Made by a program: the position numbers and the translations under genes. Below the pieces are notes generated by a model, which was not told the DNA's origin, did no database searches, and was given only the letters and a program-made list of their open reading frames with translations. 50,564 bases of DNA from IMG/VR virus record IMGVR_UViG_3300034691_000007, positions 1 through 50,564 of that record; one strand, written 5' to 3'. The DNA is from a virus (lineage: Duplodnaviria; Caudoviricetes). This document shows positions 27,003 through 49,919 of the stretch, one piece after another; position 1 is the stretch's first letter; every line of letters starts with the position of its first letter.

Positions 27003-27472
27003 TAGAGAGCAGCACCATACTTCTCACGCACTTCTGCCTTGAAGCGTATGACACATTGTCTGACAGTGATGTTTGGGACATCCATGATTTCTACAATGTC
27101 GGCAGGCAATAACTGCTTGACAAAATAAAGGTCCAGAATCTCCTGATTCTGTTTGTTCTTACCTTTGATGTCACGGATAACTTTGTCGATCAAGTCTTGA
27201 TCAGCATGCCCCATCTTAACACCTTCGTGCATTTCCTCGTCAAACTCATCGGTAGTCCCATACCGACGATCATCAGACATGAAACGCTTCAGGCAACTGC
27301 TCAAGATACGGCCGAACCAAGCGTCCATATCCTTTACTTCAGGTGTCCAATATTGCAAGGCGTTTACAAAAGCATTCTGTACAATGTCCTCAGCATTCTC
27401 TGGAGTGCCAGCACGACCACTTACTTTCTGCACAAGCTTGCGCTTGTTAGCACGATAGTAAGCCTCGATCAC
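27002..27472 (-). CDS. ECF-type RNA polymerase sigma factor
   Basis: Region 2 AEDIVQNAFV...WFGRI and region 4 helix-turn-helix (LLPADIVEIMDVPNITVRQCVIR). ~156 aa; GTG start inferred. Confidence 0.8.
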   Translation of the reverse strand: MIEAYYRANKRKLVQKVSGRAGTPENAEDIVQNAFVNALQYWTPEVKDMDAWFGRILSSCLKRFMSDDRRYGTTDEFDEEMHEGVKMGHADQDLIDKVIRDIKGKNKQNQEILDLYFVKQLLPADIVEIMDVPNITVRQCVIRFKAEVREKYGAAL

Positions 27473-27485
27473 TTGGTTACGTTCT

Positions 27486-29201
27486 TTAAACTTGTTTGAA
27501 GAGGCCGTCATTTTCATTCCAATAGAGTGGGAAGTTACCACTGGCACCGAACTCTCGGTCTTCCAGTAACTTGAGATTACGCATATTACGGATAGGTCCC
27601 GGCAGTTCAGGGTCTTTGTTACCTTCAAGCGCAAGCATGAGGTTACAACTACGCATCATTGCACGGCTACCAGCGAACTGGCTGGACGTTACATCACCAC
27701 CAAGTTCATGAGGGCAGTTACCAAGGCCGATGTACTTGTTGTCCTTGTACTTCTTGAGTCGTTGTTCCTGACTGATGTTGCCTTCAGGAGCTTTCAAGTG
27801 GACAAAGATGAACACTACAATGTTGAGGTCAAGAGCCATAGCCGCAAGTTCTTGGGCGATTTCTTGGAGCTTGGTGTTGGCGTCAGCCGCATTAACACCG
27901 TTGGTGAGGTTTGTGATCGGGTCAATGAATACCGCTTTTGCACCCCATGCCGCAGCAGCGTAAATGTCTGCTTTGAGAGTTTCCCATCCAAGGTGCTGAT
28001 AGAGATTGACCATAGACAATTTGCCTTTAAGTATCTCACCAGCTTTGTCATATGCTTCGTAGTCAAACTCTTTATCTGGGTCATGGAAGATTTTCCCTAC
28101 AATCTTACCGGCCATGAGCTTATACGTCTTGGCGTTTGCCTCTTCAGGCTTAGCCATGAACACTTTAATCTCGTGGTTCTTAACAAAGTGAGCAGCCAAG
28201 GCGTTCAGCAGCTCGCTCTTGCCCATCTTAACACCAGCCCCGATGTAGATAGTCTCACCGTAGCGGATGCCCCTTGTGATGTCGTTCAAGTCCTGCCAAG
28301 GCCATGTAAGCTCACCGTACTTGGCTGGCTCACGGGCTGACTCATGCATATCCTCACCGAACACAAGACGAGTGTTCTTCTTCTTCTCAGCTTTCCACTT
28401 AGCAGCTTGATAGGCTGCCTTGCCTTTACCCTGCATCAGACACTCATTAGCATCTTTGAGTGGCAGGTTAATGACATGGACATCTGGAAGAATCTTACAC
28501 ACTGCGTCAACTGCTGCATGTCCTGCATCATCGTCATCAAAGCAAAGACTAATCTCTTTGAAGTGCTTACGAATCTCAGGGAGCAGACGTGCTATGTCAC
28601 GCTCAGCAGAAGCAGAACCATGAGGCAAAGAAACAACTGCTGGGATGGTGTCACGGTACTGTTCCTTCTCATAGATTTGGAAGATTTTGGCAAGCGCAAT
28701 AGCGTCGTTCTCACCTTCCGTAATGATAAGACGTCGTGCTCCTGACTCTTTAGCCAACTGCCAACCGAACAGATCAACATCCTTTTGATCACCAATAGAC
28801 CAGAACTTCTTACCATCAAGAAGTTTGACTTTGTAGGCTTTGAACTCGTTCCCGCTGTAATACGGGAAGAACTGAAAGGTTGGTGTCTTACCGTCCTGTT
28901 CGCTTACACCAATCTTGACACCGTACTCACTAAGGATGTCAGCTCGCAGCTTACGGTCTGGTAGGTCAATGGTTTGGTAGCCATGGATTTCCTCCAACTC
29001 TGCTGCAATTTCTTCCTTAGTCTTACGCAAGCGCTGTGCTTGAGGGATGTCCTCAGCCCGCTTGCCGTCACCCAAAGGGTGAGCTACACGTTTCTTACAG
29101 GAAAAGCAATACCCGTCAAGGCTACCGTCTTCTTGCTCGAAGACCTGTAGACCATCACGGCTCCCGCAAGAGTGTGGTAGTTTAATCAGGCATTGCCCCA
29201 T
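27486..29201 (-). CDS. DNA primase-helicase (T7 gp4-like)
   Basis: N-terminal Zn finger, TOPRIM EGENDA and DDDDAG, Walker A GAGVKMGKS, FIDP and VHL motifs. Confidence 0.93.
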   Translation of the reverse strand: MGQCLIKLPHSCGSRDGLQVFEQEDGSLDGYCFSCKKRVAHPLGDGKRAEDIPQAQRLRKTKEEIAAELEEIHGYQTIDLPDRKLRADILSEYGVKIGVSEQDGKTPTFQFFPYYSGNEFKAYKVKLLDGKKFWSIGDQKDVDLFGWQLAKESGARRLIITEGENDAIALAKIFQIYEKEQYRDTIPAVVSLPHGSASAERDIARLLPEIRKHFKEISLCFDDDDAGHAAVDAVCKILPDVHVINLPLKDANECLMQGKGKAAYQAAKWKAEKKKNTRLVFGEDMHESAREPAKYGELTWPWQDLNDITRGIRYGETIYIGAGVKMGKSELLNALAAHFVKNHEIKVFMAKPEEANAKTYKLMAGKIVGKIFHDPDKEFDYEAYDKAGEILKGKLSMVNLYQHLGWETLKADIYAAAAWGAKAVFIDPITNLTNGVNAADANTKLQEIAQELAAMALDLNIVVFIFVHLKAPEGNISQEQRLKKYKDNKYIGLGNCPHELGGDVTSSQFAGSRAMMRSCNLMLALEGNKDPELPGPIRNMRNLKLLEDREFGASGNFPLYWNENDGLFKQV

Positions 29202-29241
29202 CTATTTCTCCAATGGTTGTTATTAATACTCTAGGACTTAT

Positions 29242-29272
29242 CTAGAGTCTTTTAGCGAGGAAAAAGATACAA
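29242..29272 (-). promoter_or_regulatory. Putative phage-sigma promoter, copy C (TTGTATC-N16-GACTCTAG), upstream of primase-helicase
   Basis: Same two boxes and identical 16-nt spacer as the copies at 39505 and 49795. Confidence 0.75.
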
Positions 29273-29273
29273 A

Positions 29274-29569: not shown

Positions 29570-30328
29570 TTACAGTTGCAGAAGTTCCTTGAAACGGGCG
29601 ACATAGCCTTCAAGCGTCGTGCCTGTAAGGCCCGGAGCAGTGTTGACTTCAAGGACATAAGCCATTTGATGCTTGTCATTCCAGATAACATCGACAGCTC
29701 CAAAGTCTAGGCCGGTCACTTCGATAGCCTTGACGGCTTGCTCAGTTACCATGGCCGGTGGGTTAACGTCGTTACGGACGAAGACAAAGCCGTTATGGTG
29801 ATTGCGCACCTTCCAGTTAATCTTGCCGTCCTCGACTTCCTTGTTACGTGCCTTGCGCTGGATGTCAACAACCTTACCGCCCAGCACATGGATACGGTAC
29901 TCATCTTTCTTGGGTACGTACTTGACGTACAAAGGGGCGTCAACGATACGATCACCAGCTTCGATGATGACGATGCCCTCACCACTATGGCCGGTCAACT
30001 TCTGACGAGCCACAACAGTAGCCCCATCAGCCAGCCAACCGGCCACAACATTCTTGTCAGTGGTGAAGGATGGGATGACTACATCACCCTCCACCGTATT
30101 GAAGAAGGTCAGCTTATTGGTGGCGTTAGCTACCTTTTCGCCGGGGTTATAGACTTTCAGCCCATTGTATGCAGCCGGAGTAGCAGAGCTACCCCAGTTG
30201 ATGATCACGTCAGCGGCCTTGGGACGCCACTTGCTGCCCTCAACTTTGAGGACTTTGATGTCGAGGCCAGCGGCCAATGCCTTAGCACTGGCGCTGCCTT
30301 GCTTGTATGCATACAACTTAGTAGTCAT
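29570..30328 (-). CDS. ATP-grasp ligase (RimK/YheCD-like, phiEco32 type)
   Basis: [22 protein letters not shown] and [10 protein letters not shown] motifs. Confidence 0.88.
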
Positions 30329-31832
30329 GGTTATCTTCCTCTTGTTCCATTGCTTCACGAGCAAGGCGGGCCATTACTTGGGTCAGGAACACTTTGTATG
30401 AACCCGGTTTGTCTTCACGTTTCAGGCGCACCAACCAGTCATACTCTTCACGAGTAAGTTCATCACGGGTCAGGCCTACCTGTTGAAGCGTAGGGAATGG
30501 CACAGGCGGGATGCCGTGGCCATCAACCTTGTTAGCCACTTGGGCTGCCTTAGGTGGGACCTTAATCCATTCAGGCGCCTTAGCAGCGGCCTTGATTTGG
30601 CCAGCCATGAATGCATCACCCAATGCAAGCTGAGCCATTCCGGCCATCACCCGACGGTCATGGACATATGGGATGTCACGAGCGGTAGCCTTGAAGTATT
30701 CGTTAGGCACCCATGCAGCAGCCATACCCTGTGGGCCATTGTTAAAGGCAGCGCCATAACCTACCAACATAGAGTTACCGTTGTCCTCATCCTTGGCCAT
30801 CCACACAATCTGACCACGTTTGAAGCCACAGGTGTCCTTCAGAATCTCTACAGAGACCCACTCTTCAGGATCAACCCCTTCAGGGATTGGCTCTACTGGC
30901 TCCTTGTATGGGTTGGCGATGAAGCCTACCGGGGCCTTAGGAACACGAGGCTTAGGTGCTGGGCGGTTGCCTTCCTCACCAAATGGCATAGGAATCTCGA
31001 AAGGATTAACAACCTCCTGTTCGTAGAACTTCTGCCAGTTAGTGCAGAACGCTACGTCCTGAGCACGACGAACACCAGCCAGTACCGACGACTTCCAGTT
31101 TGGATACTCCAAGAACAGGCCTGCGTTGTCCTTCAGGCAACGATTCATGAACAGTTGTACGTCACCACCACTGAAGGAGTTAACGACGTCTGTAGGGTCT
31201 GTGAAGGTCTTGGCTACTTCACGCAGGCCATGCAGAATCTCAGCCCACTTGTAGATCAGGTCGAGGTCACGAGTACCACGCATGGCACGGAACTCAAGCG
31301 AACCGTATGTGCCCAGTGCCTTGACGTTCATCGAAGCGTAACGCAGGTCATCGCTGACAAGGTTACGGAAGCGACGGGTCTTGGCTGCTTCTTGCAGCGC
31401 ATACAGCAGGAACTCTGCATCACCAGTGCGCAGACAGAAGAGGTTGCCTTCACGGTGCGGCCCACAGAACTTGGTCAGTACATCTTCCAAGATAATGTAG
31501 ATGGTGATGAAGTTGTACAGCTCGACGATGTTCAGGTGCTGTACGTTAACGTGAACGTGTACACCAGCCCGAACGGTGTCGTCAACTACCGAGCCGAACT
31601 TCTTGTACATCACGTTCAGATACTTCAGCGCGATGTCAGCTTCTTTCATGGACGAAGGCTTGGCAAGAACATACTCCATGTTCTCCTCGCCACGCAGGCT
31701 ACCATCCTTCTCCATCTTCCAATACTTATCGACTTGAGGGAGGTTCTTACCTTCCACCTCAATCTCGATACCAACGTCACCCTTGGTCATGAAACCTTTA
31801 GGGATGAGGAACCAATCAGCGACAGTCTTCAC
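30318..31832 (-). CDS. Amidoligase (glutamine-synthetase-like COOH-NH2 ligase) with long C-terminal extension
   Basis: GIEIE, DGSLRG..EYV, GVHVHVN, RY.SMN and GSLEFR motifs. Confidence 0.85.
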
Positions 31833-32377
31833 AATACTTCCTCCAGAGCTTCACGTAGAAAGTGGCTCTCAGCATTCAGAACAGGCTTACCATCTTCGAT
31901 GGTGCCAACCACATTACGTTTGTGCCAAAGACGCAGGCCGCTGTCAATTGCCCACTCACGGCACCATGCCATAGAGTGAACACGTTTCTTTGTAATCTCT
32001 TCCAACACCTTGGCGAAGGTAGGATATTTGCCAAGGATTACTTGGCCAACATCCTTGTAACTCAGCGCCTCAGCAGGGAAGTCACCGATGGCAGTGAAGT
32101 TCCCGAAGCGTAGGCCTTGACGCCAGTCACGACGCATAGGCTTACGCATCAGGTAAGCTACCGCACCACCACGGTTGCAGTAACCGAGACGGACAGGGTG
32201 CAGGTCAAGTTCATCAACCTTTACCTTGAAGAACGTCTCGATGCTGTCGAGGTAAGACACGGTAGCTGTCATGCCACGTTGCACACATGTTACGAACACG
32301 GGCTTGCCGTCATACACCACGACAGTTTGTTCTAGACGAGAGTTTGCATACTCGTGATCGTTACCATACATACTCAT
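31829..32377 (-). CDS. Hypothetical protein (182 aa) inside the ligase cluster
   Basis: Coupled ORF between the two ligase genes. Confidence 0.75.
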
Positions 32378-32389
32378 GACACGTTACCT

Positions 32390-33238
32390 TTAGGCGAGGT
32401 TGAAAGTTTTAGTGCGGCTGTTGTAGCCCGGTGGCAATGGGCAGCCACTACGTTTGAAGTAGTCTTCAATGGTGCGGGTATCGAACACACCAGTGATGAT
32501 GGTCCGTGCCTCGCCACCATGTTGGCCGTAGGCAATACCTTCAGACAGATCGGACATGGACTTCTGAGTTACCTCGAAGACCCATTCCATCAGGGCCTTG
32601 GACTGCAACCATGCATTGCTCAGGGTGCGGTACTCAACACCGTAAGACTTCGGACGGAAGCAACCGGGGGCACCGTACAGTTGACGACGCTTGCGGCCTT
32701 CAGGACCACCGTCAAACAACAACGAACCCAGGCCAAGCGACCAGTCCAATTGCTTAGAGGCCATGACGCAGGCCTCAAGGTGGACAGGGTCATCAGTAGG
32801 GATGCTTGCACCCCAGCCGATGTGAACGTGACCAGCAGCAGTACGGAAAGGAACCTGACCGTTAGGCCGTGGGTTAACCCCACCGTTGGTGTAAGCGTCG
32901 AAGTCAGGCTCACAGCCCAGCTCCAATGCTTCCATTGGTTGTGCCTTGATGTACTCAGCACCGAACTCTGCCACTGGGCAGGACTTCAGGGTATAGCCCG
33001 GCACCATGCTGGTGAGGGTTGCCAGTACAGCTTGGATGTTACGGGAGAACTCTTCCTTGCTGGACGCAGGGTCGATGTTGAACTCCAGTGCCATGCCATC
33101 CACTTGGACAGCGCCATGCTCTACCTTGAACGGGTTCTTCTTGTCGCCTTGGATAGCGCCATGTGCAGAGACAGGCTTACCGGCTTGGTCGAACATGAAG
33201 ATTTCTGGATCAGCGCCAACGAGAACTTGAAGTGCCAT
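32390..33238 (-). CDS. phiEco32-like COOH-NH2 ligase type 2
   Basis: GADPEIF, QVDGMALEFN, GCEPD, GHVHIG and RR.LYG.PG.FRPKSYGVEYRTLSN motifs. Confidence 0.9.
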   Translation of the reverse strand: MALQVLVGADPEIFMFDQAGKPVSAHGAIQGDKKNPFKVEHGAVQVDGMALEFNIDPASSKEEFSRNIQAVLATLTSMVPGYTLKSCPVAEFGAEYIKAQPMEALELGCEPDFDAYTNGGVNPRPNGQVPFRTAAGHVHIGWGASIPTDDPVHLEACVMASKQLDWSLGLGSLLFDGGPEGRKRRQLYGAPGCFRPKSYGVEYRTLSNAWLQSKALMEWVFEVTQKSMSDLSEGIAYGQHGGEARTIITGVFDTRTIEDYFKRSGCPLPPGYNSRTKTFNLA

Positions 33239-33239
33239 G

Positions 33240-34652
33240 TTATTTACCCTCGGTTTGTTTGATGTAGTCCGCAACATCTGTGAAGTCCTTGCAGTCCGGG
33301 CAGATGAATTCCGACGGACCAACAAAGACGATATCATCTGCCTCTTCGAGACAGGTGTCTTGCTTGCACCATGCACAGCCATTCTCTGTGGCTTTCTTGA
33401 ACTCCGCTGGAGTCAGGAGTTCTCCTTTGTACCCTTCAAGAAGGACAGGAAAGTCGGCATCATCCAACTCCTCGTCCCCACTCATCAGGGCTGTAGCTTT
33501 TGGATCTTCCATGATCGAACGCAGATCAATGGTCAAGTGCATGCCACCATTGCTGGTGAACGACTTAACCATGCCCTTGAACGCCATTGTACTGCCGAGG
33601 AGTTTCTTCCACAGCGCAGTGCCTTCACCCGGATAGCAACGAATGCTGATGCGCTCGTCGTCGATGGCGTAGCACTGTATGTACTTCTGGTTAGCAGCAG
33701 TCGCAGCACATTGCACAGTGAAGGCAACGTTCTTGTTCATGCGTTTCTGATACTCCATAAAAGACGCGTTGCCAGATACGATCCGAGGCCGTTCCTTGCC
33801 TTCAAGACGACTAACAATATCTGTGACAGTACCCACAGCTTTCGACTCAGGTCGGGGAGTCACCAAGGCAGGCTTTCTTGGAAAGGGTTCGTTTACCTTG
33901 TTGCCCCCATAGTAAGTGCCGGTGTTGTACACTGGTGGGGTGTAGAGTTCACACTTGACAGCCACTGGCTTGTCGAACTCTTTCGCAGTAGCGAGAGGGC
34001 CGAGGGGTACGTCGAAGCGGTAGTGAACACCGATTGGAAGCTCTTCGATCTTGCCCAGCTTGACCACTGCATGATGAGCAGCAACAGTCAACATCCATAC
34101 CTCTGATGCCCAGAACAAAGACTTCTTGTCATCGCTGAACACGTAGAACAATGGACGCTGATCGTTGCGGATGAAGTTCAGCGAGCGATCTTTCTTGTCC
34201 CACCATGTCAGGGCAAACGCACCGTTGAGCTTAGGTGTCGTCTCCTGAATGCCATGGTTTTCCATGTGGTGGAAGATGTTCTCGCTGTCAACGTCGAACT
34301 TGGCGTGGTCGTCAAGCTGGTAGCGAGTGGTCAGTGTGCCGTTGTGAGCACCGATGATGGTGTCAATCTCGAACGGGTGAGCATTCGTGTTGTTGATCTT
34401 GCCTTGAGTGGCCCAACGATTGTGGCCCATCAGCACAGAGTGAAACAGACGGAACTTCTCATCGACAGCTTTGAACTGGTAGAAGTCCCACGGTGTACCA
34501 ACACGCTTGATAACTTCAGTTGCACCAGCAGAGCTGACGAACAATACGCCAGTCGAATGTGGACCACGCACTGTATCGAATTCCAGCAGACGTTTGAACA
34601 TACGTTCTTCGTTGCTTCCCAGTTTACCAGCAGCGCCTACAAGTCCACACAT
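33240..34652 (-). CDS. Class II (Ntn) glutamine amidotransferase with C-terminal Zn ribbon
   Basis: N-terminal MCGLVG, RGPHSTG, HNRWAT, HPF, HNGT and DSE motifs. C-terminal CAWC...CPDC. Confidence 0.9.
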   Translation of the reverse strand: MCGLVGAAGKLGSNEERMFKRLLEFDTVRGPHSTGVLFVSSAGATEVIKRVGTPWDFYQFKAVDEKFRLFHSVLMGHNRWATQGKINNTNAHPFEIDTIIGAHNGTLTTRYQLDDHAKFDVDSENIFHHMENHGIQETTPKLNGAFALTWWDKKDRSLNFIRNDQRPLFYVFSDDKKSLFWASEVWMLTVAAHHAVVKLGKIEELPIGVHYRFDVPLGPLATAKEFDKPVAVKCELYTPPVYNTGTYYGGNKVNEPFPRKPALVTPRPESKAVGTVTDIVSRLEGKERPRIVSGNASFMEYQKRMNKNVAFTVQCAATAANQKYIQCYAIDDERISIRCYPGEGTALWKKLLGSTMAFKGMVKSFTSNGGMHLTIDLRSIMEDPKATALMSGDEELDDADFPVLLEGYKGELLTPAEFKKATENGCAWCKQDTCLEEADDIVFVGPSEFICPDCKDFTDVADYIKQTEGK

Positions 34653-34679
34653 AATAAATTCCTTCCAAAAATTGGGTAG

Positions 34680-35387
34680 TTAAACAGCTTCTACTTCAAA
34701 GGGATGATGCCCATGAGCAGCACGATGACGTTGGATTACTTCAACCTCTTCGGTCTCATATTCCTGAGCTTCTTCTACAGCGATGGTCCGTTCAACCATC
34801 ACGCCAGTCCGGTTACTGACCCGAGTAGCGTAATAGCGAATGTTGCGAGGGGCTGCACCACGGATGAACAGACGATAAGGACCAACTTCTTCGTCCTCCT
34901 CTTCCTCTTCATCATTAAAGAGGTCCCAGTCAGGAAGCTCCTCTTCGGCTGCTACAGCTTGAACTTGGAACGGGTTGACCGCTGGTGCAGGTTCAGCAAT
35001 GAAACGTCCCTGAGCGTCTCGTGGGCGCTCCTGAGCCTGCTTCTCTGCTATCACAGCGTGTTCTTCAGGTTTAGCTGGCTCTTTCCAGCCTTGAACATGA
35101 AGGTAGAACAATTCGATGGTCACTTCAGGGTGACGATCCTTGCTTGCTGGACCAGTACCAATGAAGCCAAGGTCTTTTAGAACCTTAGCCGCAGTGGTTT
35201 GTTCACTGGTCAGGATGGCAGTGACAATGCCATGACGAGTGCAGTTGTTTACCTTACCAACTACCTCACGCCACAGCTTGTCATACTGCACAGCATTGTA
35301 GCCATACTCACTTGTGTGGCTTTCACCAAAACTTGTGAGGATGTCGGCTGTACAGCAACCCTCAAAATCATGTTTCTGAACGGCCAT
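34680..35387 (-). CDS. Hypothetical protein (235 aa), possible degenerate GNAT N-terminal domain
   Basis: AGGAGG RBS; AILTSEQTTAAKVLKDLGF; acidic linker. Confidence 0.65.
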   Translation of the reverse strand: MAVQKHDFEGCCTADILTSFGESHTSEYGYNAVQYDKLWREVVGKVNNCTRHGIVTAILTSEQTTAAKVLKDLGFIGTGPASKDRHPEVTIELFYLHVQGWKEPAKPEEHAVIAEKQAQERPRDAQGRFIAEPAPAVNPFQVQAVAAEEELPDWDLFNDEEEEEDEEVGPYRLFIRGAAPRNIRYYATRVSNRTGVMVERTIAVEEAQEYETEEVEVIQRHRAAHGHHPFEVEAV

Positions 35388-35434
35388 ACAGCCTCCTAAA
35401 TTTTCTCAGGTTAATTAAGCGCTTGGCTATCCCG

Positions 35435-35605
35435 TTACAGGGACTCGAAGCGTCGGTCGTATTCGATCAAGGCATCATCTGCCTCAATAGCGGCGAGGGT
35501 TGCACTCTTACCACTGGCATGTGCCGTCTGGAAAGCCTTAACCCAAAAGTCTTTACGACCTAGGGACTTAGCCAAACCTTGACGGCGGATGAGTTCACTG
35601 TCCAT
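35435..35605 (-). CDS. Hypothetical protein (56 aa, MDSELIRRQG...)
   Basis: Hand-translated; TAATG-coupled. Confidence 0.6.
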   Translation of the reverse strand: MDSELIRRQGLAKSLGRKDFWVKAFQTAHASGKSATLAAIEADDALIEYDRRFESL

Positions 35606-36234
35606 TACTTAAGCCCGATAGTACGTTCGATGAGTTGGAAGTACAGGTCAGTACAAGACTGGACACCATACTCAGGGTGTGGCTGGAAGCACAGACTGTT
35701 AGTGTCTGGATACCAAACGCATTCAACATCAGGATAGCCGGGGTCGGCCTTTGTCTTGATGGTGTCGTTCTCCAACCATGTAGCTTCGTTGGCACGTACC
35801 AACACAGCACCACGTTCACCTTCACGCATCATTTGGTGATGAGTGGAAGTTACTTGAACTTCGTCGATCACGTCACCATCTACGCCGATAACATAGGCAA
35901 CGTGAGTACCATGGATAGCGTGACCATTGACGTGTTGCCACATCTTGCCGCCGTTCATGACGTTGAGGAACTGACCACCACGACAGATGCCGATGCAAGG
36001 CTTGCCCAACATGTGGGCCAACTGGTAGTAACCCATTTCAATCAGGTCACGGCGAGGGTCATTGCCAGTGGTACGGTGATTCTTCTCACCGTACAGGAAG
36101 GGTGATACATCGGAGCCACCAGTGAACTGGAACACGTCAGCTTGAAGGGCATCAGCTACCACTTCCCAGCCAGCACGCTCAAACATTCGCTGAATAGCGC
36201 CATCACCACCTACGATATAAACCTTATTGGGCAT
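35605..36234 (-). CDS. Class I glutamine amidotransferase / peptidase C26 (PuuD-like gamma-glutamyl hydrolase)
   Basis: GGSDVSP, RD..E, GICRGGQ nucleophile elbow, STHHQ and QPHPE motifs. Confidence 0.88.
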   Translation of the reverse strand: MPNKVYIVGGDGAIQRMFERAGWEVVADALQADVFQFTGGSDVSPFLYGEKNHRTTGNDPRRDLIEMGYYQLAHMLGKPCIGICRGGQFLNVMNGGKMWQHVNGHAIHGTHVAYVIGVDGDVIDEVQVTSTHHQMMREGERGAVLVRANEATWLENDTIKTKADPGYPDVECVWYPDTNSLCFQPHPEYGVQSCTDLYFQLIERTIGLK

Positions 36235-37204
36235 AGCCAATTTCCTTGAACAGTACGTGTTGGAACTCAGCCCACTTGGCCCAAGCTGTTTTAACATCGG
36301 CGTAATCTGTTTCACGCCGAACTGGACGAGCAGCAGCGAATGGATTAGCCACGGCGTCAGCGTCTACCTTCTGAGCTACCTCGTCCTTCCAAGGGAAGTT
36401 GTTGGCAATCCAGACGTGAGCAGTGCCCACCTTGTAGCGGTCCTTTTCCTTGACGAACATGTTGCTGTAGCCCTGATAGCTCTGGTCTTCAGAGTAAGAC
36501 TTGTTCAGGTGCCACGGCTTATGCTCAAGGAAAGCCTTGAGGTCAGCCAAGTCCATGCTCTGGACGGCGAGGTTCATGTGACCACACTCAGCCTCGCCCC
36601 ACTTGATTGACTTGTTGTTGTTGGTGTACTGGCTGGACGCAGCGAGGAAGTAAGCGAGGTCTTCGTTAACCCCTGCCTCGACAGCATCAAGCCATGCCTT
36701 CTTGATGCGCAGTGTTTCCCACAGACGCCTGATTGCTACACCACCACCAACCATGAGGTTAGAGGGTGCCTTGGCATCCATGATGACAGAGCGCTTCAGT
36801 GTGGCGTACTTGGCAGACTTACTTACGAATGCCTTGGACCATGGCGAGCGATTGATAACCCAGTCCAGATACTTCAGGTCTTCAGCAGCACCACGTTTCT
36901 TGCCGGGGCCTTTGTCTTCGTCGCCGTAGTAGTCCTTGTAGTCCTTCTGGATGCCTACAATGAACGCCACGGAACCACGACCGTTGCCCGGCTTACCTTG
37001 GATCAGGTCAGGCTGATTGGCCGTGTTCTTGTTGTAATACTCTGCCATGGAAGCAAAGCAGTTGGTTTGTGGGCACATGAACGTGTGGTCAGGATGCACC
37101 ACAGCGAACGATGTACACTGAGTCCACTGCTTAGGATTCTTGTCCATCCAAGTCAGGAACTTGTGTTGACCACGCAACGCTTGCCAGAAGTCTTCCCGTT
37201 TCAT
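36224..37204 (-). CDS. Hypothetical protein (326 aa)
   Basis: ATG 37204 after AAAGG; strong codon bias. Confidence 0.75.
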   Translation of the reverse strand: MKREDFWQALRGQHKFLTWMDKNPKQWTQCTSFAVVHPDHTFMCPQTNCFASMAEYYNKNTANQPDLIQGKPGNGRGSVAFIVGIQKDYKDYYGDEDKGPGKKRGAAEDLKYLDWVINRSPWSKAFVSKSAKYATLKRSVIMDAKAPSNLMVGGGVAIRRLWETLRIKKAWLDAVEAGVNEDLAYFLAASSQYTNNNKSIKWGEAECGHMNLAVQSMDLADLKAFLEHKPWHLNKSYSEDQSYQGYSNMFVKEKDRYKVGTAHVWIANNFPWKDEVAQKVDADAVANPFAAARPVRRETDYADVKTAWAKWAEFQHVLFKEIGYAQ

Positions 37205-37214
37205 GACGTAACCT

Positions 37215-37463
37215 TTACAGTTGAGTGAAGGACTGGCCAGCATAGTGGCGTTTGACATACTGGCTGATGTTGCGCTGGCAACCTTCAGACAGCTTGACTT
37301 GAATTGGCGTGATGGTCTGCATGATTTGCTTACCATCCTGCCCCAGTGCAGCAGTTGGGACCAGATAGCCTTTGTGCTGAATTTCAACATAAGAGCGCTC
37401 CGGTTGGCCGATGAAGTCACGTTGTACCAGTTTACGAATACGTTTAGCTACTGTGCCACGCAT
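37215..37463 (-). CDS. Hypothetical basic protein (82 aa, MRGTVAKRIRK...)
   Basis: AAGGA RBS. Confidence 0.7.
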   Translation of the reverse strand: MRGTVAKRIRKLVQRDFIGQPERSYVEIQHKGYLVPTAALGQDGKQIMQTITPIQVKLSEGCQRNISQYVKRHYAGQSFTQL

Positions 37464-39225: not shown

Positions 39226-39363
39226 TTAACCAACCTTACGTTGATATACAGACGCCAATGCAACGGCCTGATACTTCCTATCAGCCGTATCTACAATGAC
39301 GCCATTGAACATAACCCACCATGCAATACGGGCGGGTGAACGCACTACCGTTACAGCAGACAT
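39226..39363 (-). CDS. Hypothetical protein (45 aa, MSAVTVVRSP...)
   Basis: Hand-translated; overlaps the upstream gene and fills the gap. Confidence 0.6.
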   Translation of the reverse strand: MSAVTVVRSPARIAWWVMFNGVIVDTADRKYQAVALASVYQRKVG

Positions 39364-39488
39364 TCCGTTTCTTCTTCTTCATCGCCAACGCTTACAGACT
39401 GGCTGTCACCATCGCAGACAAAGGCTTGACCACCTTCGACATAGCCCATATACGCATCGGCTAAAGATACATTTGCATAAGTATTCAT
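39351..39488 (-). CDS. Small acidic protein (45 aa, MNTYANVSLA...DEEEETECLL)
   Basis: GAGGG RBS; hand-translated. Confidence 0.6.
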   Translation of the reverse strand: MNTYANVSLADAYMGYVEGGQAFVCDGDSQSVSVGDEEEETECLL

Positions 39489-39504
39489 TTATTTTTACCC
39501 TCGG

Positions 39505-39535
39505 TTGTATCGTTTTGTCTAGAAAACGACTCTAG
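39505..39535 (+). promoter_or_regulatory. Putative phage-sigma promoter, copy B, antisense to the early arm
   Basis: TTGTATC-N16-GACTCTAG; shares AAAACGACTCTAGTATAGTA with the copy at 49795. Confidence 0.7.
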
Positions 39536-39593
39536 TATAGTATACTAACTATTACTTACTTCTATTACTTCTTACTACTTCTAACTAAACCTC

Positions 39594-39625
39594 AAAAGCC
39601 TACTAGTAATTACTAATAGGCTTTT
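39594..39625. terminator. Bidirectional intrinsic terminator
   Basis: AAAAGCCTA-C-TAGT-AATT-ACTA-A-TAGGCTTTT, with T-tracts on both strands. Confidence 0.75.
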
Positions 39626-39633
39626 ATTGTTTG

Positions 39634-40194
39634 TTAAGCAGCCTTGTCTGCTGCCTCTTGTTCTTCTTGGCTAACGATAGCCTCGAAGTTACAGATAGCG
39701 AACAACTGTTGCATGGTAGCCTCGTTAACATGCATGTTCACTTTCGCTTGATCTTCTGGCGTCATGCCTTTGACCTTTTCTTGCGTCTCCTTGTGCTTTT
39801 TCAGCACGTTCTGAAGCGCCGCTTCAAGATCAAAGCCCTTGAATGGTTGTTGCAACTTCAAGTCCCACCACATTGTGGCTTTAGCGTCATTGAACGCTTT
39901 TTCAATGTAGTCCTTACCTTTCCAATCAACGAAAGCGCCCTTTTCTTCGTCAATCGACAGACCGCCGAACTTAACAAAGAATTCCACCAGTGCTTTGCCG
40001 TTGATAGTGTTACCCAACGAGGTTACAAGGCTGGTAGCGGCGCTGTAGTCGCCATGCTTGAAGGCATGGTACAAGACACCTACAGCGGCCTGCTGTACGT
40101 TAACACGGGCGGTCTGTACAGACTTGACAGCCTTGTCGCACAGTTTAGCCAGTTCGGCGGCGTCTTTAGGCATTACATATTTGATAGCGGTCAT
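39634..40194 (-). CDS. Early hypothetical protein (186 aa)
   Basis: GGAG RBS, highly biased codons, HGD motif. Confidence 0.8.
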   Translation of the reverse strand: MTAIKYVMPKDAAELAKLCDKAVKSVQTARVNVQQAAVGVLYHAFKHGDYSAATSLVTSLGNTINGKALVEFFVKFGGLSIDEEKGAFVDWKGKDYIEKAFNDAKATMWWDLKLQQPFKGFDLEAALQNVLKKHKETQEKVKGMTPEDQAKVNMHVNEATMQQLFAICNFEAIVSQEEQEAADKAA

Positions 40195-40246
40195 GGTTGT
40201 AACTCCAAATTAGTTTCTAGGGTTTATTGCAGCGGTCGGCATTGCA

Positions 40247-40510
40247 TTACTGCTTGTCTTTCCACACCTTGTTAATGGTTGCGCACTTAACGCCACTGCC
40301 TCGGGCTTGACGCTTACCATCTGGATTCCAGAAGCCAGCAACCTTGCCCATTGAGACAACTTGCTTAACCTTCTTTTTGTGGCTGGCCTTCAAGTTACGG
40401 TATTGACGTTTCGCATCAAGGCTACCGTCAAGTAACAGAGCGTCAACCAGTTGAAACGTGCGGCTCGCTAGAGGTTTGCTAACGAGTGTATGATGTTTGC
40501 GTTTACTCAT
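40247..40510 (-). CDS. Early basic hypothetical protein (87 aa)
   Basis: AAGGAG RBS. Confidence 0.7.
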   Translation of the reverse strand: MSKRKHHTLVSKPLASRTFQLVDALLLDGSLDAKRQYRNLKASHKKKVKQVVSMGKVAGFWNPDGKRQARGSGVKCATINKVWKDKQ

Positions 40511-40528
40511 TTCTATATTCTCCTTAGC

Positions 40529-40569
40529 GTTTACCTAAACACACTAGACTATAGTGTCCTTAGGTAAAC
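40529..40569 (-). promoter_or_regulatory. Long stem immediately before the RBS, candidate RNase III site
   Basis: GTTTACCTAA pairs with TTAGGTAAAC, and ACACTA with TAGTGT. Shares CACACTAGAC with the 37501 stem. Confidence 0.6.
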
Positions 40570-40901
40570 CCTTACGGGTTTTGCTCTTTACGAGACTTCA
40601 AAGGGTGACGTGTTACGTTATCGTCACGACTAAGGCTAGTAGCTCACTGCTCACGGGCCTTTGCTATCAGGCGAATGTCAGTCGGCACTTTGGGCACTAG
40701 CTGGCCCCCAAGATACGCTTGGTCGTTTGGGCGGTTTCTGAGCACCGTAGCTCCAGCCGCTTATAGTCTCGACGTGACAATCAGACCTTATTCAGTGAAC
40801 TACGCCATTCAAGGCTGCGCCCAAAGTGTCCAGACTAACCCGCCCTACCTGCTAGGACATACAGTTTGGTTAGAAGCCCCGAGGCCCGTTTGCCTCTTGT
40901 T
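40570..40901 (-). ncRNA. Candidate large structured RNA / leader
   Basis: Nested long-range helices with G-U pairs specific to the minus strand, no credible ORF, directly downstream of a sigma70 promoter. Confidence 0.55.
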
Positions 40902-40907
40902 GGGTTA

Positions 40908-40935
40908 AGTATACAGCATTCTGTCATTGTGTCAA
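40908..40935 (-). promoter_or_regulatory. sigma70 early promoter TTGACA-16-TATACT
   Basis: Near-consensus boxes. Confidence 0.75.
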
Positions 40936-41013
40936 GCCTCATTTTTCTATCTAGGCTTAATCCAACCGGCCAGCATTGGTTAACCCTAACCGTTGCCTGT
41001 GCTGTGAGTCCGT

Positions 41014-41043
41014 AGTGTATGTCGCTAGGCACTGCATTGTCAA
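41014..41043 (-). promoter_or_regulatory. sigma70 early promoter TTGACA-18-TACACT
   Basis: Consensus -35 and near-consensus -10. Confidence 0.65.
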
Positions 41044-41180
41044 CTGAATATTAGTAGCCATTCACAACCGTCATGCGTTGGTTCAATGTGAGTTAACTCA
41101 CAATCAAACCCATCTGCTATATAGCTTTGCATGTAGTTCGTTGCTACGTCAAGACACTTATAGTAACGATAGTATTTCAT
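41040..41180 (-). CDS. Early hypothetical protein (46 aa, MKYYRYYKCL...)
   Basis: Hand-translated; ATGA-coupled to the upstream ORF. Confidence 0.55.
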   Translation of the reverse strand: MKYYRYYKCLDVATNYMQSYIADGFDCELTHIEPTHDGCEWLLIFS

Positions 41181-41320
41181 GACTGGCTATACCAGCGAAC
41201 ATACCACACTTGTTCGCCATCCTCTAGCACAGCTTCAAGCATTACCTTATAGCCTTTGCTCTTATAATAGTTGCGCTTAGCTTTAGCCTTAGCCCAATTA
41301 GTATATCGTTCTTTGATCAT
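41177..41320 (-). CDS. Early hypothetical protein (47 aa, MIKERYTNWA...)
   Basis: GAGGG RBS; downstream of promoters; hand-translated. Confidence 0.6.
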   Translation of the reverse strand: MIKERYTNWAKAKAKRNYYKSKGYKVMLEAVLEDGEQVWYVRWYSQS

Positions 41321-41394
41321 GGTCAAGCCCTCATTATTAGAGTGCCTACCGATCATACACTACAGATTGTTAAAGAGCGGTGGAACATGTAGCC

Positions 41395-41423
41395 ATTGTG
41401 CCGTTTGTTCGTGTTGCTGTCAA
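41395..41423 (-). promoter_or_regulatory. sigma70 early promoter TTGACA-17-CACAAT
   Basis: Consensus -35 with a 17-nt spacer. Confidence 0.6.
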
Positions 41424-41550
41424 GCGGTTATTGCTGTCTTGCGTATCGCATCATTAGTAGGAAGTCCCTAGCATGGCGAACCATGACTAAGCCCTTACTA
41501 ACTAGGCTAGCTTGCTGCCTCTCGGTCTTATGCTTGCTGGCTTGGAACGA

Positions 41551-41579
41551 ACTATAAGCATGTGCCGCCAACCTGTCTA
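41551..41579 (-). promoter_or_regulatory. sigma70 early promoter TAGACA-17-TATAGT
   Basis: One mismatch per box with a 17-nt spacer. Confidence 0.7.
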
Positions 41580-42316
41580 CCTGTTAATCCATACAGTGTA
41601 TTGATAGGAAAGCTGACCACTTGATCAAGTAGGCATAGCTAAGCCCTTGTATCCATTGGAGTTTATCAAGCCTGCCACGATAGACACATACCCTATACGT
41701 TGGCCTAGCCTAAGCCCTATCGTTGCTCATACGCGCTTGTAGGAGCTTAGAGCCATAGCTACCGTTCGTCTGCCTGATAGTAGCCTTCATGTATAAAGGA
41801 ACGCGCACATGTGGGCTATATACCTACGCGTAGCAATTACCATGCCATACCTAGCATGACTCGTGCTACAGCACGTTAGACAATACTAAGCGCGGGCAAA
41901 GCCCGCAAAGCACGCATAAGGCAAGATCAAAGGCAGACACTGCAAAGTGAATACTAATAGAAGCCTTGATATACATGGGCTGTAGCTAGATGAACTAAGT
42001 ATATGTGTGCATGTATCAATGTGGTCATGTGTGGATATAGTCAATGCAACTAACTACTTGCCCGCTTACATATAGATTATGCTCGTCATACTAGCAATGT
42101 TTGATAATTATGGCGAGTTAGCCCAAGGGGTATGCCGGGGGTGTTGGGTAACGGGTTTCTGTTGCAATGCCCCTCCTAAATTTCTCCACAAAATTACAAG
42201 CAGCCGGTAGCTTCCCTTCAAGTAGTAAGGAGTGTTGGACACATTCTATGTTAGGGATAACATGTGCTAAGTGAATACGAGCTGCCGTTCATGAAACGCC
42301 TATAGGAAACACAGAT
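41580..42316. other. Non-coding divergence region, probable location of the physical genome ends / direct terminal repeat
   Basis: ORF-free gap between the divergent arms, just upstream of the early promoter cluster (inference from T7-like and zobellvirus organisation). Confidence 0.55.
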
Positions 42317-45670: not shown

Positions 45671-46183
45671 ATGATTGATAAGAACAGATTTCTAGACACT
45701 ACAGGCAGACCTCTTACTCAAAGCATCTTCTTGGAGATTGGCTATACAGAGTACGCAGTCTATACCCTTAAAGAATTCGACTACATGTACAAGGGCCAGT
45801 ACTACCCGTCCTTGAAGAAGCTCTTCCTAGAGTGTGAAGACCCAACCGAATATGAATTTGCAACTAAGCACCTTCTCGGCTGGCAGCACTGGAAGCGTCT
45901 ATGTGAGAACAAACAGATTGCACGTCACGTTGCTGAGTGGCGAGAAGAACTGGAACTCAAGATTCGTTCTAACGCTGTACGGGAAATGCAAGCCCTGTGC
46001 GGTAGCGAGAATGGCAACTACAGTGCTGCAAAGTTCTTGGCCGACCGTGGCTGGGATAAACGTGCTGCTGGCCGTCCAAGCAAGAATGAGCTGGAGAAGG
46101 AAACTCGTATTGCAGAACATATTGCCAACGAGTTCAGTGATGATATTGCTCGACTCTCGTTGGTGGTAGATAATGGAAAGTGA
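45671..46183 (+). CDS. terS: Putative terminase small subunit
   Basis: 170 aa directly upstream of and overlapping terL; helical, with a basic AGRPSK motif. Confidence 0.65.
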   Translation: MIDKNRFLDTTGRPLTQSIFLEIGYTEYAVYTLKEFDYMYKGQYYPSLKKLFLECEDPTEYEFATKHLLGWQHWKRLCENKQIARHVAEWREELELKIRSNAVREMQALCGSENGNYSAAKFLADRGWDKRAAGRPSKNELEKETRIAEHIANEFSDDIARLSLVVDNGK

Positions 46184-49787: not shown

Positions 49788-49794
49788 AAATAGT

Positions 49795-49825
49795 TTGTAT
49801 CTTTTTCACTCAAAAACGACTCTAG
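49795..49825 (+). promoter_or_regulatory. Putative phage-sigma late promoter, copy A, upstream of the scaffold/capsid operon
   Basis: TTGTATC-N16-GACTCTAG. Confidence 0.8.
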
Positions 49826-49919
49826 TATAGTACTAGTATACTTATTAGTTAAAAAGAACATTAGAAGCACTAAGCATTAAATACTTCTAATGTTCTCTAA
49901 TTACTTAAAGGAAATAACA

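What the first reader, a model, noticed from the sequence alone, without database searches (positions are those of the whole stretch)
39505..39630. Antisense phage promoter, then a 57-nt G-free repeat tract, then a terminator: hidden sRNA or transcription-primed origin
Seen: promoter copy B points against the early genes. 39541-39597 contains no G on the plus strand and is built from TACT/TACTT units. The hairpin at 39594-39625 follows, with TTTTATTGTTTGTT after it; there is no ORF. Caveat: the hairpin pairs slightly better on the minus strand. Inferences: (a) an ~85-nt late sRNA, or antisense to the AAG/UAG-rich, Hfq-like leader of the downstream early genes, shutting them off; (b) a T7-like origin, i.e. 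phage promoter plus AT-rich unwinding tract; (c) read-through across the joined genome ends to feed the fibre-terminase-portal operon, which has no clear promoter copy of its own.
Basis: partly seen in the sequence, partly recalled or inferred. Interest (0 to 1): 0.8.

Follow-up and report, generated by a model that had tools for sequence, protein, structure and literature searches.

The report
Backward-facing phage promoter making short RNA
A peat-metagenome phage carries a third copy of its own middle/late promoter pointing backwards at the border between early and middle genes, followed by a G-free stretch and a two-way terminator, so it probably makes a roughly 90-base non-coding RNA; related phages keep the backward promoter but not the RNA.

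Summary
The sequence 39505-39542 (+) is 87% identical to the promoter-like motif upstream of the scaffold gene, with a 20-nt identical core. A third copy sits upstream of the primase gene. 39541-39597 has no G and is the longest base-free run in the genome. 39594-39625 is a hairpin with a T-rich tail on the + strand. There is no ORF.

New here:
- The window is a complete phage related to Paundecimvirus that encodes an ECF-like sigma factor.
- The three-copy layout recurs in uncultured relatives: one copy at the scaffold gene, one at the primase gene, and one antisense at the early/middle boundary. The antisense copy is present in 4 of 4 records that hold an early region.
- Six of 7 Paundecimvirus-like isolates share two sequence blocks with copy B at the orthologous intergenic region, in the same orientation.
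- The relatives lack the terminator, and the G-free tract is not conserved at their antisense copies.

Best reading (confidence about 0.4): a sigma-dependent late promoter that acts locally. It fires against early read-through and in this phage yields a short, terminated antisense RNA, similar in design to lambda oop. The main rival is a transcription-activated origin (0.2). No RNA data exist. This is a new member of a known kind, of moderate interest.

The parts
39489..39633 (.). Intergenic region between two minus-strand genes; 145 nt, 29.7% G+C against 49.3% for the genome; second lowest-GC 120-nt window of the genome
39505..39542 (+). Promoter-motif copy B (TTGTATC, T-tract/A-tract inverted repeat, GACTCTAG, TATAGT), antisense to the flanking genes
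39510..39529 (.). Inverted repeat TCGTTTT-GTCTAG-AAAACGA inside the motif. The pair at motif positions 8 and 23 is G-C in B, T-A in C and mismatched in A.
   Evidence: read by eye; fold
39538..39547 (.). Perfect 10-bp palindrome TAGTATACTA. With the next two bases (TAGTATACTAAC) it is identical in six Paundecimvirus isolates at the orthologous intergenic region.
39541..39597 (+). 57-nt G-free tract (C-free and 65% purine on the minus strand)
39552..39587 (+). Weak tandem repeats, period 9-10 (TTACTTCTA / TTACTACTTC), 3.0-3.6 copies
39594..39625 (.). Hairpin usable on both strands (two-way intrinsic terminator): -12.8 kcal/mol as + RNA, -16.7 as minus RNA
   Evidence: (I3)
39622..39635 (+). T-rich tail TTTTATTGTTTGTT after the hairpin on the + strand: 7 U in the first 9 nt after the G+C stem, against 5 of 9 on the minus strand (my count). 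Non-coding up to 39633.
39540..39633 (+). Predicted non-coding RNA of about 82-97 nt. The start is inferred (39540 +/- 8) and the end is inferred from the terminator. Not observed.
   Evidence: inference
39634..40194 (-). Early gene, homologue of K4 gp07 (58% identity), PHROG 1448, function unknown. Its mRNA would end at the hairpin.
39351..39488 (-). 45-aa ORF, the first gene after the intergenic region. Its GAGGGT ribosome-binding site (39497-39502) lies 2 nt from the upstream edge of promoter copy B.
49795..49832 (+). Promoter-motif copy A, upstream of the scaffold/capsid genes
29235..29272 (-). Promoter-motif copy C, directly upstream of the primase/helicase - sigma - DNA polymerase genes
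27008..27490 (-). Phage sigma factor, ECF-like, the likely reader of the motif

Best explanation
Copy B is a working third copy of the phage's own middle/late promoter class, most likely read by host core RNA polymerase carrying the phage's ECF-like sigma factor. It sits at the border between the early genes and the middle genes and fires against them.

In this phage transcription would start near 39540, run through the G-free and therefore almost structure-free 57 nt, and stop at the hairpin plus U-tail (39594-39633). That would give a non-coding RNA of about 90 nt.

Its role is local. Once sigma is made, polymerases loading at B collide with, or block, polymerases that have read through the leaky early terminator towards the middle genes. 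The RNA is also exactly complementary to the 3' end and read-through part of the early transcript. Both effects shut off early-promoter-driven expression late in infection. The replication genes (copy C) and structural genes (copy A) keep their own promoters of the same class.

Shown: the sequence anatomy, the homology of B to A and C, and the conservation of an antisense copy in relatives. Inferred: that the motif is a promoter, that sigma reads it, the start site, termination, and the shut-off mechanism.
For: (1) B matches A at 33 of 38 nt, with an identical 20-nt core. The 8-mer GACTCTAG is identical in A, B and C.

(2) A and C lie directly upstream of, and are co-oriented with, the scaffold/capsid genes and the primase-sigma-polymerase genes.

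(3) The phage has a sigma gene: Pfam Sigma70_r2 at 26.5 bits against a cutoff of 24, and PHROG 1740 at 2e-20. The K4 homologue is annotated as a sigma factor. Sigma is the most diverged of the 8 proteins compared, at 37-42% identity against 53-80% for the others. This parallels the diverged promoter motifs.

(4) A two-block pattern, TGTA[GT]NN, then 13-22 nt, then AGTATAG or a similar word, hits 3 places in the window, 4 in G001 and 3 in G002. Shuffles gave means of 0.23-0.39, and 0 of 100 reached the observed count. In G001, G002 and the fragment G003, one hit is antisense in an AT-rich intergenic region of the early region. That makes 4 of 4 records holding an early region, counting the window.

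(5) Six of 7 Paundecimvirus-like isolates share GAAACGNCT and TAGTATACTAAC with copy B, in the same order and orientation, at the intergenic region after the gp07 homologue.

(6) The non-coding tail after the hairpin is more U-rich on the + strand (7 of 9) than on the minus strand (5 of 9). This is what is expected if + strand transcripts really arrive there (my count).

(7) Only one sigma-70-like site, a weak one (9 of 12), was found on the minus strand between 39600 and 29300. The middle genes therefore appear to depend on read-through of this hairpin.

(8) Precedents. Sigma-dependent promoters of phages 7-11 and phiEco32 differ in sequence but sit at similar genome positions (passages). [quoted passage not shown]
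Against: - No transcript has been seen.
- The promoter class and its reader are unverified for this whole clade. All NCBIfam ECF matches of the sigma protein are below their cutoffs.
- The two-block pattern was written after seeing the late copies, so only the extra hits count as a test.
- K4 gives 0 hits to that pattern. G004 has no hit upstream of primase although the region is present. GP100 lacks the intergenic region.
- The window's motif has a spacer 4-5 nt longer than in G001 and G002, so its -10 element and start site are uncertain.
- The core is palindromic and contains -10-like hexamers on both strands.
- The hairpin is more stable on the minus strand.
- In G001 and G002 no terminator-like site follows the antisense copy, and the downstream sequence is not G-free there. 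In K4 the hairpin has no T-tail in the antisense direction. The short RNA is therefore specific to this phage.
- If the conserved role were to sweep antisense transcription across the early genes, this window's terminator would defeat it.
Confidence: 0.4

Rival explanations
1. Transcription-activated origin of replication. The conserved feature is a sigma-type promoter firing into an easily melted AT-rich tract. The transcript, or the opening it causes, starts DNA synthesis by the T7-like primase-helicase and DNA polymerase.
For: The antisense promoter is conserved, but its RNA product is not conserved in sequence, length or termination. This fits a role for the act of transcription.

The intergenic region is the second lowest-GC 120-nt window in the window, in G001 and in G002, and shares third place in K4. 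K4-group regions carry (TA)n runs of variable length. The window has 3 weak repeats at 9-10 nt spacing.

The sigma gene lies between the primase-helicase and polymerase genes. T7's primary origin is a pair of phage promoters plus an AT-rich stretch at the early/middle border (recalled, not checked here).
Against: There is no direct evidence. The lowest-GC window is the scaffold promoter leader, so AT-richness goes with this promoter class in general. The RNA is pyrimidine-rich and G-free, which does not favour a stable RNA-DNA hybrid (general knowledge). No single-subunit phage polymerase as in T7 is annotated in K4. The cumulative GC skew turns near 15 kb and 45 kb and follows gene orientation, not this site.
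Confidence: 0.2
2. Upstream promoter of the fibre-terminase-portal block. Transcripts from B pass, or are let through, the terminator, cross the early genes in antisense and read into the + strand genes from 42317. This would resemble lambda's PR' with its promoter-proximal terminator.
For: In the window, G001 and G002 no hit of the motif pattern lies upstream of that block other than the antisense copy, which is co-oriented with it. G001 and G002 have no terminator-like site after the copy. Lambdoid late promoters make a short terminated RNA unless antiterminated (listing abstract of PMC7547250, plus recall).
Against: In this window a hairpin with a good U-tail follows at once. 2.7 kb of antisense early genes with several strong sigma-70-like promoters facing the other way lie between. 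A sigma-70-like site, TGGACA-16-TAACAT, lies just upstream of 42317. No antiterminator was looked for or found.
Confidence: 0.1
3. Trans-acting small RNA. The single-stranded pyrimidine-rich 5' part, which includes CCUC, pairs with purine-rich ribosome-binding regions of host or phage mRNAs, with the terminator U-tail as an Hfq handle.
For: The architecture is that of many bacterial small RNAs: an unstructured 5' part of about 48 nt, then a terminator hairpin and U-tail. Late intergenic small RNAs of about 100 nt exist in phage PAK_P3.
Against: A duplex scan against 70 phage translation-start regions gave a best energy of -29.5 kcal/mol, reached by 3 of 100 shuffled RNAs. The host is unknown. 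The tract is not conserved in relatives. No Rfam family reached its threshold.
Confidence: 0.1
4. The palindromic core works towards the minus strand. It would be the promoter, or part of it, of the middle genes from 39488 down, and the inverted repeat would become a 5' stem-loop of that mRNA.
For: TATACT occurs twice on the minus strand (39546-39541 and 5 nt further). A start near 39534 would give a 46-nt leader with a 5' hairpin and the GAGGGT site. Few other minus-strand promoter candidates exist downstream.
Against: No -35-like element lies upstream on the minus strand (read). In A and C the same logic would point the promoter away from the genes. In G001, G002 and G003 the non-palindromic TGTAGAC block fixes the orientation as antisense.
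Confidence: 0.1
5. No transcript of consequence. The copy would be a silent relic of promoter duplication or gene conversion, or only a binding site for a phage DNA-binding protein. The hairpin would merely terminate the early operon, and the G-free run would come from slippage of a G-less 9-10 nt unit in AT-rich spacer DNA.
For: Copy positions move between relatives. C lies between the 68-aa ORF and primase here, but upstream of that ORF's homologue in G001. A shares its 5' half with C and its 3' half with B, which suggests exchange between copies. The G-free run contains the weak tandem repeat.
Against: An antisense copy is kept at the same kind of border in 4 of 4 records holding an early region, and related blocks are kept in 6 of 7 isolates, at 55-61% identity of the neighbouring protein. 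The + strand U-tail has no use in this reading.
Confidence: 0.1

Closest known systems
Lambda oop RNA (details recalled; named as the classic phage antisense RNA in the PAK_P3 paper, passages)
   Same: A short non-coding RNA with its own promoter and intrinsic terminator. It lies between two genes of an early operon, is transcribed against them, and is complementary to the 3' end of the upstream gene's transcript. It also lies close to where replication control is exerted.
   Different: oop overlaps the end of the cII coding sequence, whereas this RNA would stop just short of the stop codon of 39634-40194. oop uses the host sigma-70 promoter po, whereas here the promoter is of the phage's own middle/late class. 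There is no sequence relation, and nothing has been shown experimentally.
Late intergenic small RNAs and antisense RNAs of Pseudomonas phages PAK_P3 and LUZ7 (PMC4933390 and bioRxiv 10.1101/2022.03.18.484859; passages read)
   Same: Non-coding transcripts of about 100-250 nt arising from intergenic regions late in infection. Antisense transcription is proposed there to silence genes of another temporal class.
   Different: Those RNAs were observed by RNA sequencing, while this one is only predicted. The phage families are different, and no sequence relation was tested.
Promoters of phage-encoded sigma factors in phiEco32 and 7-11 (PMC8948821; passages read)
   Same: A small phage sigma redirects host core polymerase to a few phage-specific promoters. 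These are bipartite in 7-11 (GTAAtg-16-aCTA). Their sequence differs between related phages while their genome positions are kept. The same is seen here between the window, G001/G002 and K4.
   Different: The consensus is different. No antisense copy is mentioned in that paper ('antisense' occurs 0 times). Recognition by the sigma factor is not shown here.
T7 primary origin (phage promoters 1.1A and 1.1B plus an AT-rich stretch; recalled)
   Same: A phage-specific promoter followed by an AT-rich tract at the early/middle gene border of a phage with a T7-like primase-helicase and family A polymerase.
   Different: T7 uses its own single-subunit polymerase and the promoters face with the genes. 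Here the promoter is of the sigma type and faces against them. Origin activity is untested.
Two-way intrinsic terminators
   Same: An A-tract, a G+C-containing stem and a T-tract allow termination on both strands. A second example in this window lies at 15116-15138, where the two gene blocks converge.
   Different: Here one of the two converging transcripts would be only about 90 nt long.

Membership tests
Middle/late promoter motif of this phage (copies A and C) | Sequence match over the whole motif, including TTGTATC, the T-tract/A-tract inverted repeat and GACTCTAG | tested here: met
   33 of 38 nt identical to A. The 19-mer occurs twice against a shuffle mean of 0.02. The pattern T4+..A4+..TATAGT-like hits only A, B and C in the window.
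Middle/late promoter motif of this phage (copies A and C) | Lies upstream of, and is co-oriented with, a gene block | tested here: not met
   B faces against both neighbouring genes, and no + strand ORF follows. The same holds for the antisense copies in G001, G002 and G003.
Middle/late promoter motif of this phage (copies A and C) | Transcription starts there and depends on the phage sigma factor | not testable with these tools
   No RNA run is listed for this phage. Testing this needs in vitro transcription or 5'-end mapping.
Intrinsic (Rho-independent) terminator | Stable stem-loop directly followed by a U-rich tail | tested here: met
   + strand: -12.8 kcal/mol, tail UUUUAUUGU. Minus strand: -16.7 kcal/mol, tail UUUUGAGGU. 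The scan tool lists the minus-strand form only.
cis-antisense RNA of the lambda oop type | Own promoter and own terminator, transcribed against an operon | tested here: met
   Met by sequence anatomy only.
cis-antisense RNA of the lambda oop type | Overlaps the coding sequence or ribosome-binding site of the target gene | tested here: not met
   The predicted RNA (about 39540-39633) ends before the stop codon at 39634-39636. It starts 38 nt beyond the ribosome-binding site of 39351-39488.
cis-antisense RNA of the lambda oop type | RNA observed, and target mRNA cleaved or repressed | not testable with these tools
   No expression data are available.
T7-type transcription-primed origin | Phage promoter followed by an AT-rich stretch | tested here: met
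   29.7% G+C, the second lowest-GC 120-nt window of the genome.
T7-type transcription-primed origin | Promoter of a single-subunit phage RNA polymerase | tested here: inconclusive
   K4's 77 annotated features include a sigma factor and no RNA polymerase. The window's own ORFs were not all scanned.
T7-type transcription-primed origin | Replication starts there | not testable with these tools
   GC skew follows gene orientation. The only run is kept as contigs.
Any curated RNA family (Rfam 15) | Score at or above the family's gathering threshold | tested here: not met
   The best hit was 29.2 bits against 60 (a microRNA model that matches the hairpin). All 8 hits are below threshold. No tRNA was found.
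Hfq-dependent trans-acting small RNA | Single-stranded seed plus terminator U-tail | tested here: met
   The fold shows this.
Hfq-dependent trans-acting small RNA | Specific target pairing beyond chance | tested here: inconclusive
   3 of 100 shuffles do as well against the phage's own start regions. The host is unknown.

The most novel reading that the evidence does not exclude
The backward promoter and its AT-rich tract would be the replication origin of this phage clade. It would be switched on by the phage's own sigma factor, whose gene sits inside the replication module, so that sigma-dependent transcription licenses DNA synthesis. This would be a sigma-factor version of T7's promoter-primed origin. 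It would explain why the promoter and its AT-rich setting are conserved while the RNA is not.
Probability: 0.2. Interest if true: 0.7.

Novelty: new member of a known kind. Interest (0 to 1): 0.45.

Why it matters
If the promoter fires, it gives a simple, testable switch for turning off early-promoter-driven expression in a group of podophages that use a phage sigma factor. That group includes Pseudomonas aeruginosa phages of interest for therapy (PA11, K4, O4, TC6).

The same three-promoter layout across diverged relatives also gives a first map of the sigma-dependent promoters of this little-studied clade. The G-free transcript would be easy to test in vitro, because it should be made without GTP apart from a possible initiating G. 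If the origin reading is right instead, this would locate the origin of these phages.

Tried and rejected
Expression data. The look-up of sequencing runs: no RNA holder listed. The only holder is a DNA run kept as contigs, which may be the source of the record.

Near relatives by DNA pattern:
- The 19-mer core and the A/B/C consensus gave 0 hits in viral contigs.
- The consensus gave 0 hits in metagenome contigs. The second permitted metagenome scan was not used.
- The G001-type late motif found only G001, G002 and G004 again.
- TGTAGAC-N16-AGTATATACT found those three plus two unrelated contigs, L034 and L035. L034's match lies inside an ORF. Neither matched a K4 protein other than a weak ribonucleotide reductase hit. 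I treat both as chance.
- AAACGNCTNT..TAGTATACTAAC found two contigs whose lengths equal the O4 and PA11 records, plus an unrelated 70-kb contig (L036). There the words form a textbook TTGACA-17-TATACT promoter. I treat that as chance.

Protein route. The gp07 homologue alone found nothing in viral contigs. The amidoligase homologue gave 5 loci, which were used.

A hidden antisense gene. The + strand frame opposite 39634-40194 is open for 221 aa, and also in K4 (216 aa) and G001 (206 aa), but only 119 aa in G002. I rejected it as a gene. The three codons whose complements are stops make up 1.1% of codons, 7 of 34 large genes have none, and P(0 in 187 codons) = 0.13.

Other checks:
- Known RNA families and tRNA: none.
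- Trans targets in the phage: weak.
- Homology of the G-free tract to relatives' scaffold leaders: the best hits in G004 fall in its scaffold leader, but at E = 0.44-1.8. I count this as composition, not homology.
- G-free runs after this promoter class. The longest such run in K4 and G004, and the second longest in G002 (42 nt against 44), lie just downstream of the scaffold promoter. This is suggestive only. In the window the scaffold leader is not G-free.
- GTATAC is not over-represented: 7 found against about 13 expected.
- A sigma-70 reading of the motif: no acceptable -35/-10 spacing was found by eye, and the scan tool did not list it.

Supplementary files of the papers were not opened.
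Full report
WHAT THE WINDOW IS

The window is one complete IMG/VR virus record of 50564 bp. Its first and last 127 bases are identical. The only sequencing run that holds it is a peat-metagenome DNA run.

Its closest named relatives are Pseudomonas phages of the genus Paundecimvirus, family Zobellviridae: K4, PA11, O4, TC6 and others. Mapping of K4's annotated proteins gives 37 homologues at 34-81% identity and the same gene order.

- Structural and packaging genes lie on the + strand, from 42317 across the record's ends to about 15109.
- Early, nucleotide-metabolism and replication genes lie on the minus strand, from about 42240 down to 15191.
- The two blocks converge on a two-way terminator at 15116-15138.
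- The 1.8 kb at the head of the minus block (40500-42300) holds several sigma-70-like promoters, for example TTGACA-16-TATACT at 40935.
- Between the primase-helicase and DNA polymerase genes lies a 161-aa sigma factor. It scores Pfam Sigma70_r2 at 26.5 bits (cutoff 24) and PHROG 1740 at 2e-20, with full-length but sub-threshold matches to ECF sigma models.

THE OBSERVATION

Promoter copy. 39505-39542 (+) is 87% identical to 49795-49832 (+). The 19-mer AAACGACTCTAGTATAGTA occurs only at these two places, against 0.02 expected. A third copy, less similar in its 3' half, lies at 29235-29272 on the minus strand.

- Copy A lies 88 nt upstream of the scaffold start codon.
- Copy C lies 34 nt upstream of the primase start codon.
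- Both face their genes.
- Copy B lies between two minus-strand genes and faces against them.

G-free tract. 39541-39597 has no G. It is the longest run free of any one base in the genome (next: 34 nt), and 1 of 300 shuffles had a longest run that long. It contains TACT six times and ACTTCT three times at 9-10 nt spacing, but only a weak tandem-repeat score.

Hairpin. 39594-39625 folds on both strands: -12.8 kcal/mol with one C.A mismatch as + RNA, and -16.7 kcal/mol as minus RNA. The + strand tail, UUUUAUUGU, is the more U-rich. The minus-strand tail is UUUUGAGGU.

No ORF can start in a G-free stretch.

WHAT THE MOTIF IS

I found five uncultured relatives through the amidoligase gene and fetched three of them whole.

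Upstream of their scaffold genes, G001, G002 and G004 carry TGTAGTC-TTTTCTCTCAAAAAAG-AGTATAG/T. This aligns without gaps to copy A at 27 of 37 positions (my count from the sequences).

A pattern written from these sequences is TGTA[GT]NN, then 13-22 nt, then AGTATAG or a similar word. It gave:

| Record | Hits | Shuffle mean |
|---|---|---|
| Window | 3 | 0.23 |
| G001 | 4 | 0.29 |
| G002 | 3 | 0.39 |

None of 100 shuffles per genome reached the observed count.

Because the pattern was written after seeing the late copies, only the further hits are a test. Those further hits fall in a telling way.

- One lies upstream of the primase region and is co-oriented with it (G001 +43819, G002 -38458, G003 fragment +8888).
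- One lies in a large AT-rich intergenic region of the early region and faces against the early genes (G001 -35693, G002 +45949, G003 -90).
- The fourth G001 hit lies inside the primase coding sequence. I take it as chance.

Counted over the records that hold the relevant region:

- Scaffold copy: 4 of 4 (window, G001, G002, G004).
- Primase-side copy: 4 of 6 (missing in G004 and in the distant G005 fragment).
- Antisense copy: 4 of 4 (window, G001, G002, G003).
- K4: no hit to the pattern.

At the orthologous intergenic region after the gp07 homologue, K4, PA11, TC6, O4, HHBS10_2 and Ty share the blocks GAAACGNCT and TAGTATACTAAC with copy B, in the same order and orientation. GP100 has no such region. 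That region of K4 also resembles K4's own scaffold-upstream sequence in that orientation (by eye).

The sigma protein is the most diverged of eight proteins compared: 37-42% identity against 53-80% for the others. This fits promoters that differ between lineages while keeping their places. The same has been shown for the sigma factors of phages phiEco32 and 7-11 (passages).

I conclude that the motif is the promoter class of the phage sigma factor. This is an inference, since nobody has mapped a transcript in this clade. My full-text search for 'Paundecimvirus' listed 7 papers; none is about transcription judging by title and abstract start, and I did not read them.

WHAT IS AND IS NOT CONSERVED AT THE ANTISENSE COPY

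Conserved:
- The promoter, and its orientation against the early genes.
- Its place at the last large intergenic region before the middle genes, 7.6-11.7 kb upstream of primase.
- Its upstream edge close to the ribosome-binding site of the next gene. My counts by eye from the sequences are 2 nt in the window and 3 nt in G003, with similar arrangements in G002 and K4.
- A very AT-rich setting: the second lowest-GC window in the window, G001 and G002.

Not conserved:
- The sequence downstream of the promoter.
- A G-free composition.
- A terminator. None was found within about 350 nt in G001 and G002. In K4 the hairpin has no T-tail in the antisense direction.

G-free or G-poor leaders do follow the scaffold copy in K4, G004 and G002. 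A G-poor start may therefore go with this promoter class. In the window, however, that trait sits at B and not at A.

HOW IT MOST LIKELY WORKS

The window's + strand U-tail lies in non-coding DNA and has no use for the minus-strand genes. Its presence suggests that + strand transcripts do reach the hairpin.

On the minus strand the tail is poorer. Between 39600 and 29300 the scan found only one weak sigma-70-like site. The middle genes, including the sigma gene itself, therefore seem to depend on read-through of this hairpin from the early promoters.

A sigma-dependent promoter placed just beyond that leaky terminator and facing it would oppose further read-through once sigma has accumulated. 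It would do so by collision or occlusion, and it would produce an RNA exactly complementary to the read-through transcript. Meanwhile the replication and structural genes would run from their own copies, C and A.

In this phage the antisense transcript is cut short to about 90 nt, which spares the early coding sequences from antisense transcription. The conserved role must then be local, because a role that needed long antisense RNA would be defeated by this terminator.

The same argument keeps the origin reading alive. A promoter firing into an AT-rich tract next to the replication-linked sigma is what a transcription-activated origin would look like. I cannot separate the two readings by computation.

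I give:
- 0.4 to the local shut-off / short antisense RNA reading;
- 0.2 to the origin;
- 0.1 each to read-through into the fibre-terminase-portal genes, a trans-acting small RNA, a minus-strand promoter, and no function.

COMPARISON WITH WHAT IS KNOWN

In design this is closest to lambda's oop RNA, with one difference: it would not overlap a coding sequence. Late intergenic small RNAs and antisense transcripts have been seen in Pseudomonas phages PAK_P3 and LUZ7. No Rfam family fits. It is a new member of a known kind, found in an uncultured relative of a little-studied genus. Its most useful by-product is a first candidate map of that clade's sigma-dependent promoters.

LIMITS

- There are no expression data.
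- The set of relatives is small: three whole genomes, two fragments and seven isolates, six of which are close to each other.
- The promoter pattern was written post hoc.
- The start site is uncertain because the window's motif has a spacer 4-5 nt longer than its relatives'.

Noticed in passing
L011:952-1026 (-), i.e. G001 about 23107-23181: Relative G001 carries a tRNA-Asn (GTT) gene inside the leader between its scaffold promoter motif and the scaffold start codon. The window, G002 and G004 have none there. K4 has a tRNA-Arg (TCT) at 5094-5170.
   Followed up: partly
window 49855-49896: The leader after promoter copy A folds into a 13-bp stem-loop (AGAACATTAGAAG ... CTTCTAATGTTCT) about 25 nt before the scaffold ribosome-binding site. 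The 96-nt leader has z = -3.4 against shuffles. G002 and G004 leaders also hold hairpins.
   Followed up: partly
window 29202-29273 compared with L005 and L008: Promoter copy C looks like an insertion of about 60 nt between the 68-aa ORF and primase, relative to G001 and G004, where that spacer is about 30 nt. In G001 the primase-side promoter copy lies upstream of that ORF's homologue instead. So promoter positions turn over.
   Followed up: partly
window 49787-49832, 29235-29282, 39505-39542: Copy A shares its 5' half (AAAATAnTTTGTATCTTTTTC) with C and its 3' half (AAAACGACTCTAGTATAGTA) with B. This looks like exchange between copies. The AGAAAATAATTT word before C also occurs upstream of a strong sigma-70-like promoter in K4 (1136-1776) and may be an UP-like element.
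   Followed up: no
window 40511-40834 and 41572-42316: Long stretches without convincing ORFs at the head of the early region, with several sigma-70-like promoters on the minus strand and a terminator-like hairpin at 41891-41907. K4 has a similar 640-nt stretch at 1136-1776.
   Followed up: no
window 29570-37390 (-): A cluster of homologues of K4's predicted amidotransferases, COOH-NH2 ligase, amidoligase and ATP-grasp protein (36-59% identity) fills the region between copies B and C. Their substrate is unknown.
   Followed up: no
G001 35620-35660 and G002 46010-46050 (antisense strand): Downstream of the antisense promoter copies of G001 and G002, a conserved 21-nt block (GTGAGTGAAACGAACATTATC) could open a micro-ORF (VSETNII...). 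The window has nothing comparable. It may simply reflect general similarity of the two intergenic regions.
   Followed up: no
window 15116-15138: A G+C-rich two-way terminator lies where the + and minus gene blocks converge.
   Followed up: no
window 39631-40275 (+): A 214-aa open frame lies opposite the gp07 homologue and is also open in K4 and G001. It is explained by the rarity of TTA, CTA and TCA codons (1.1%). 7 of 34 large genes have a fully open complementary frame.
   Followed up: yes
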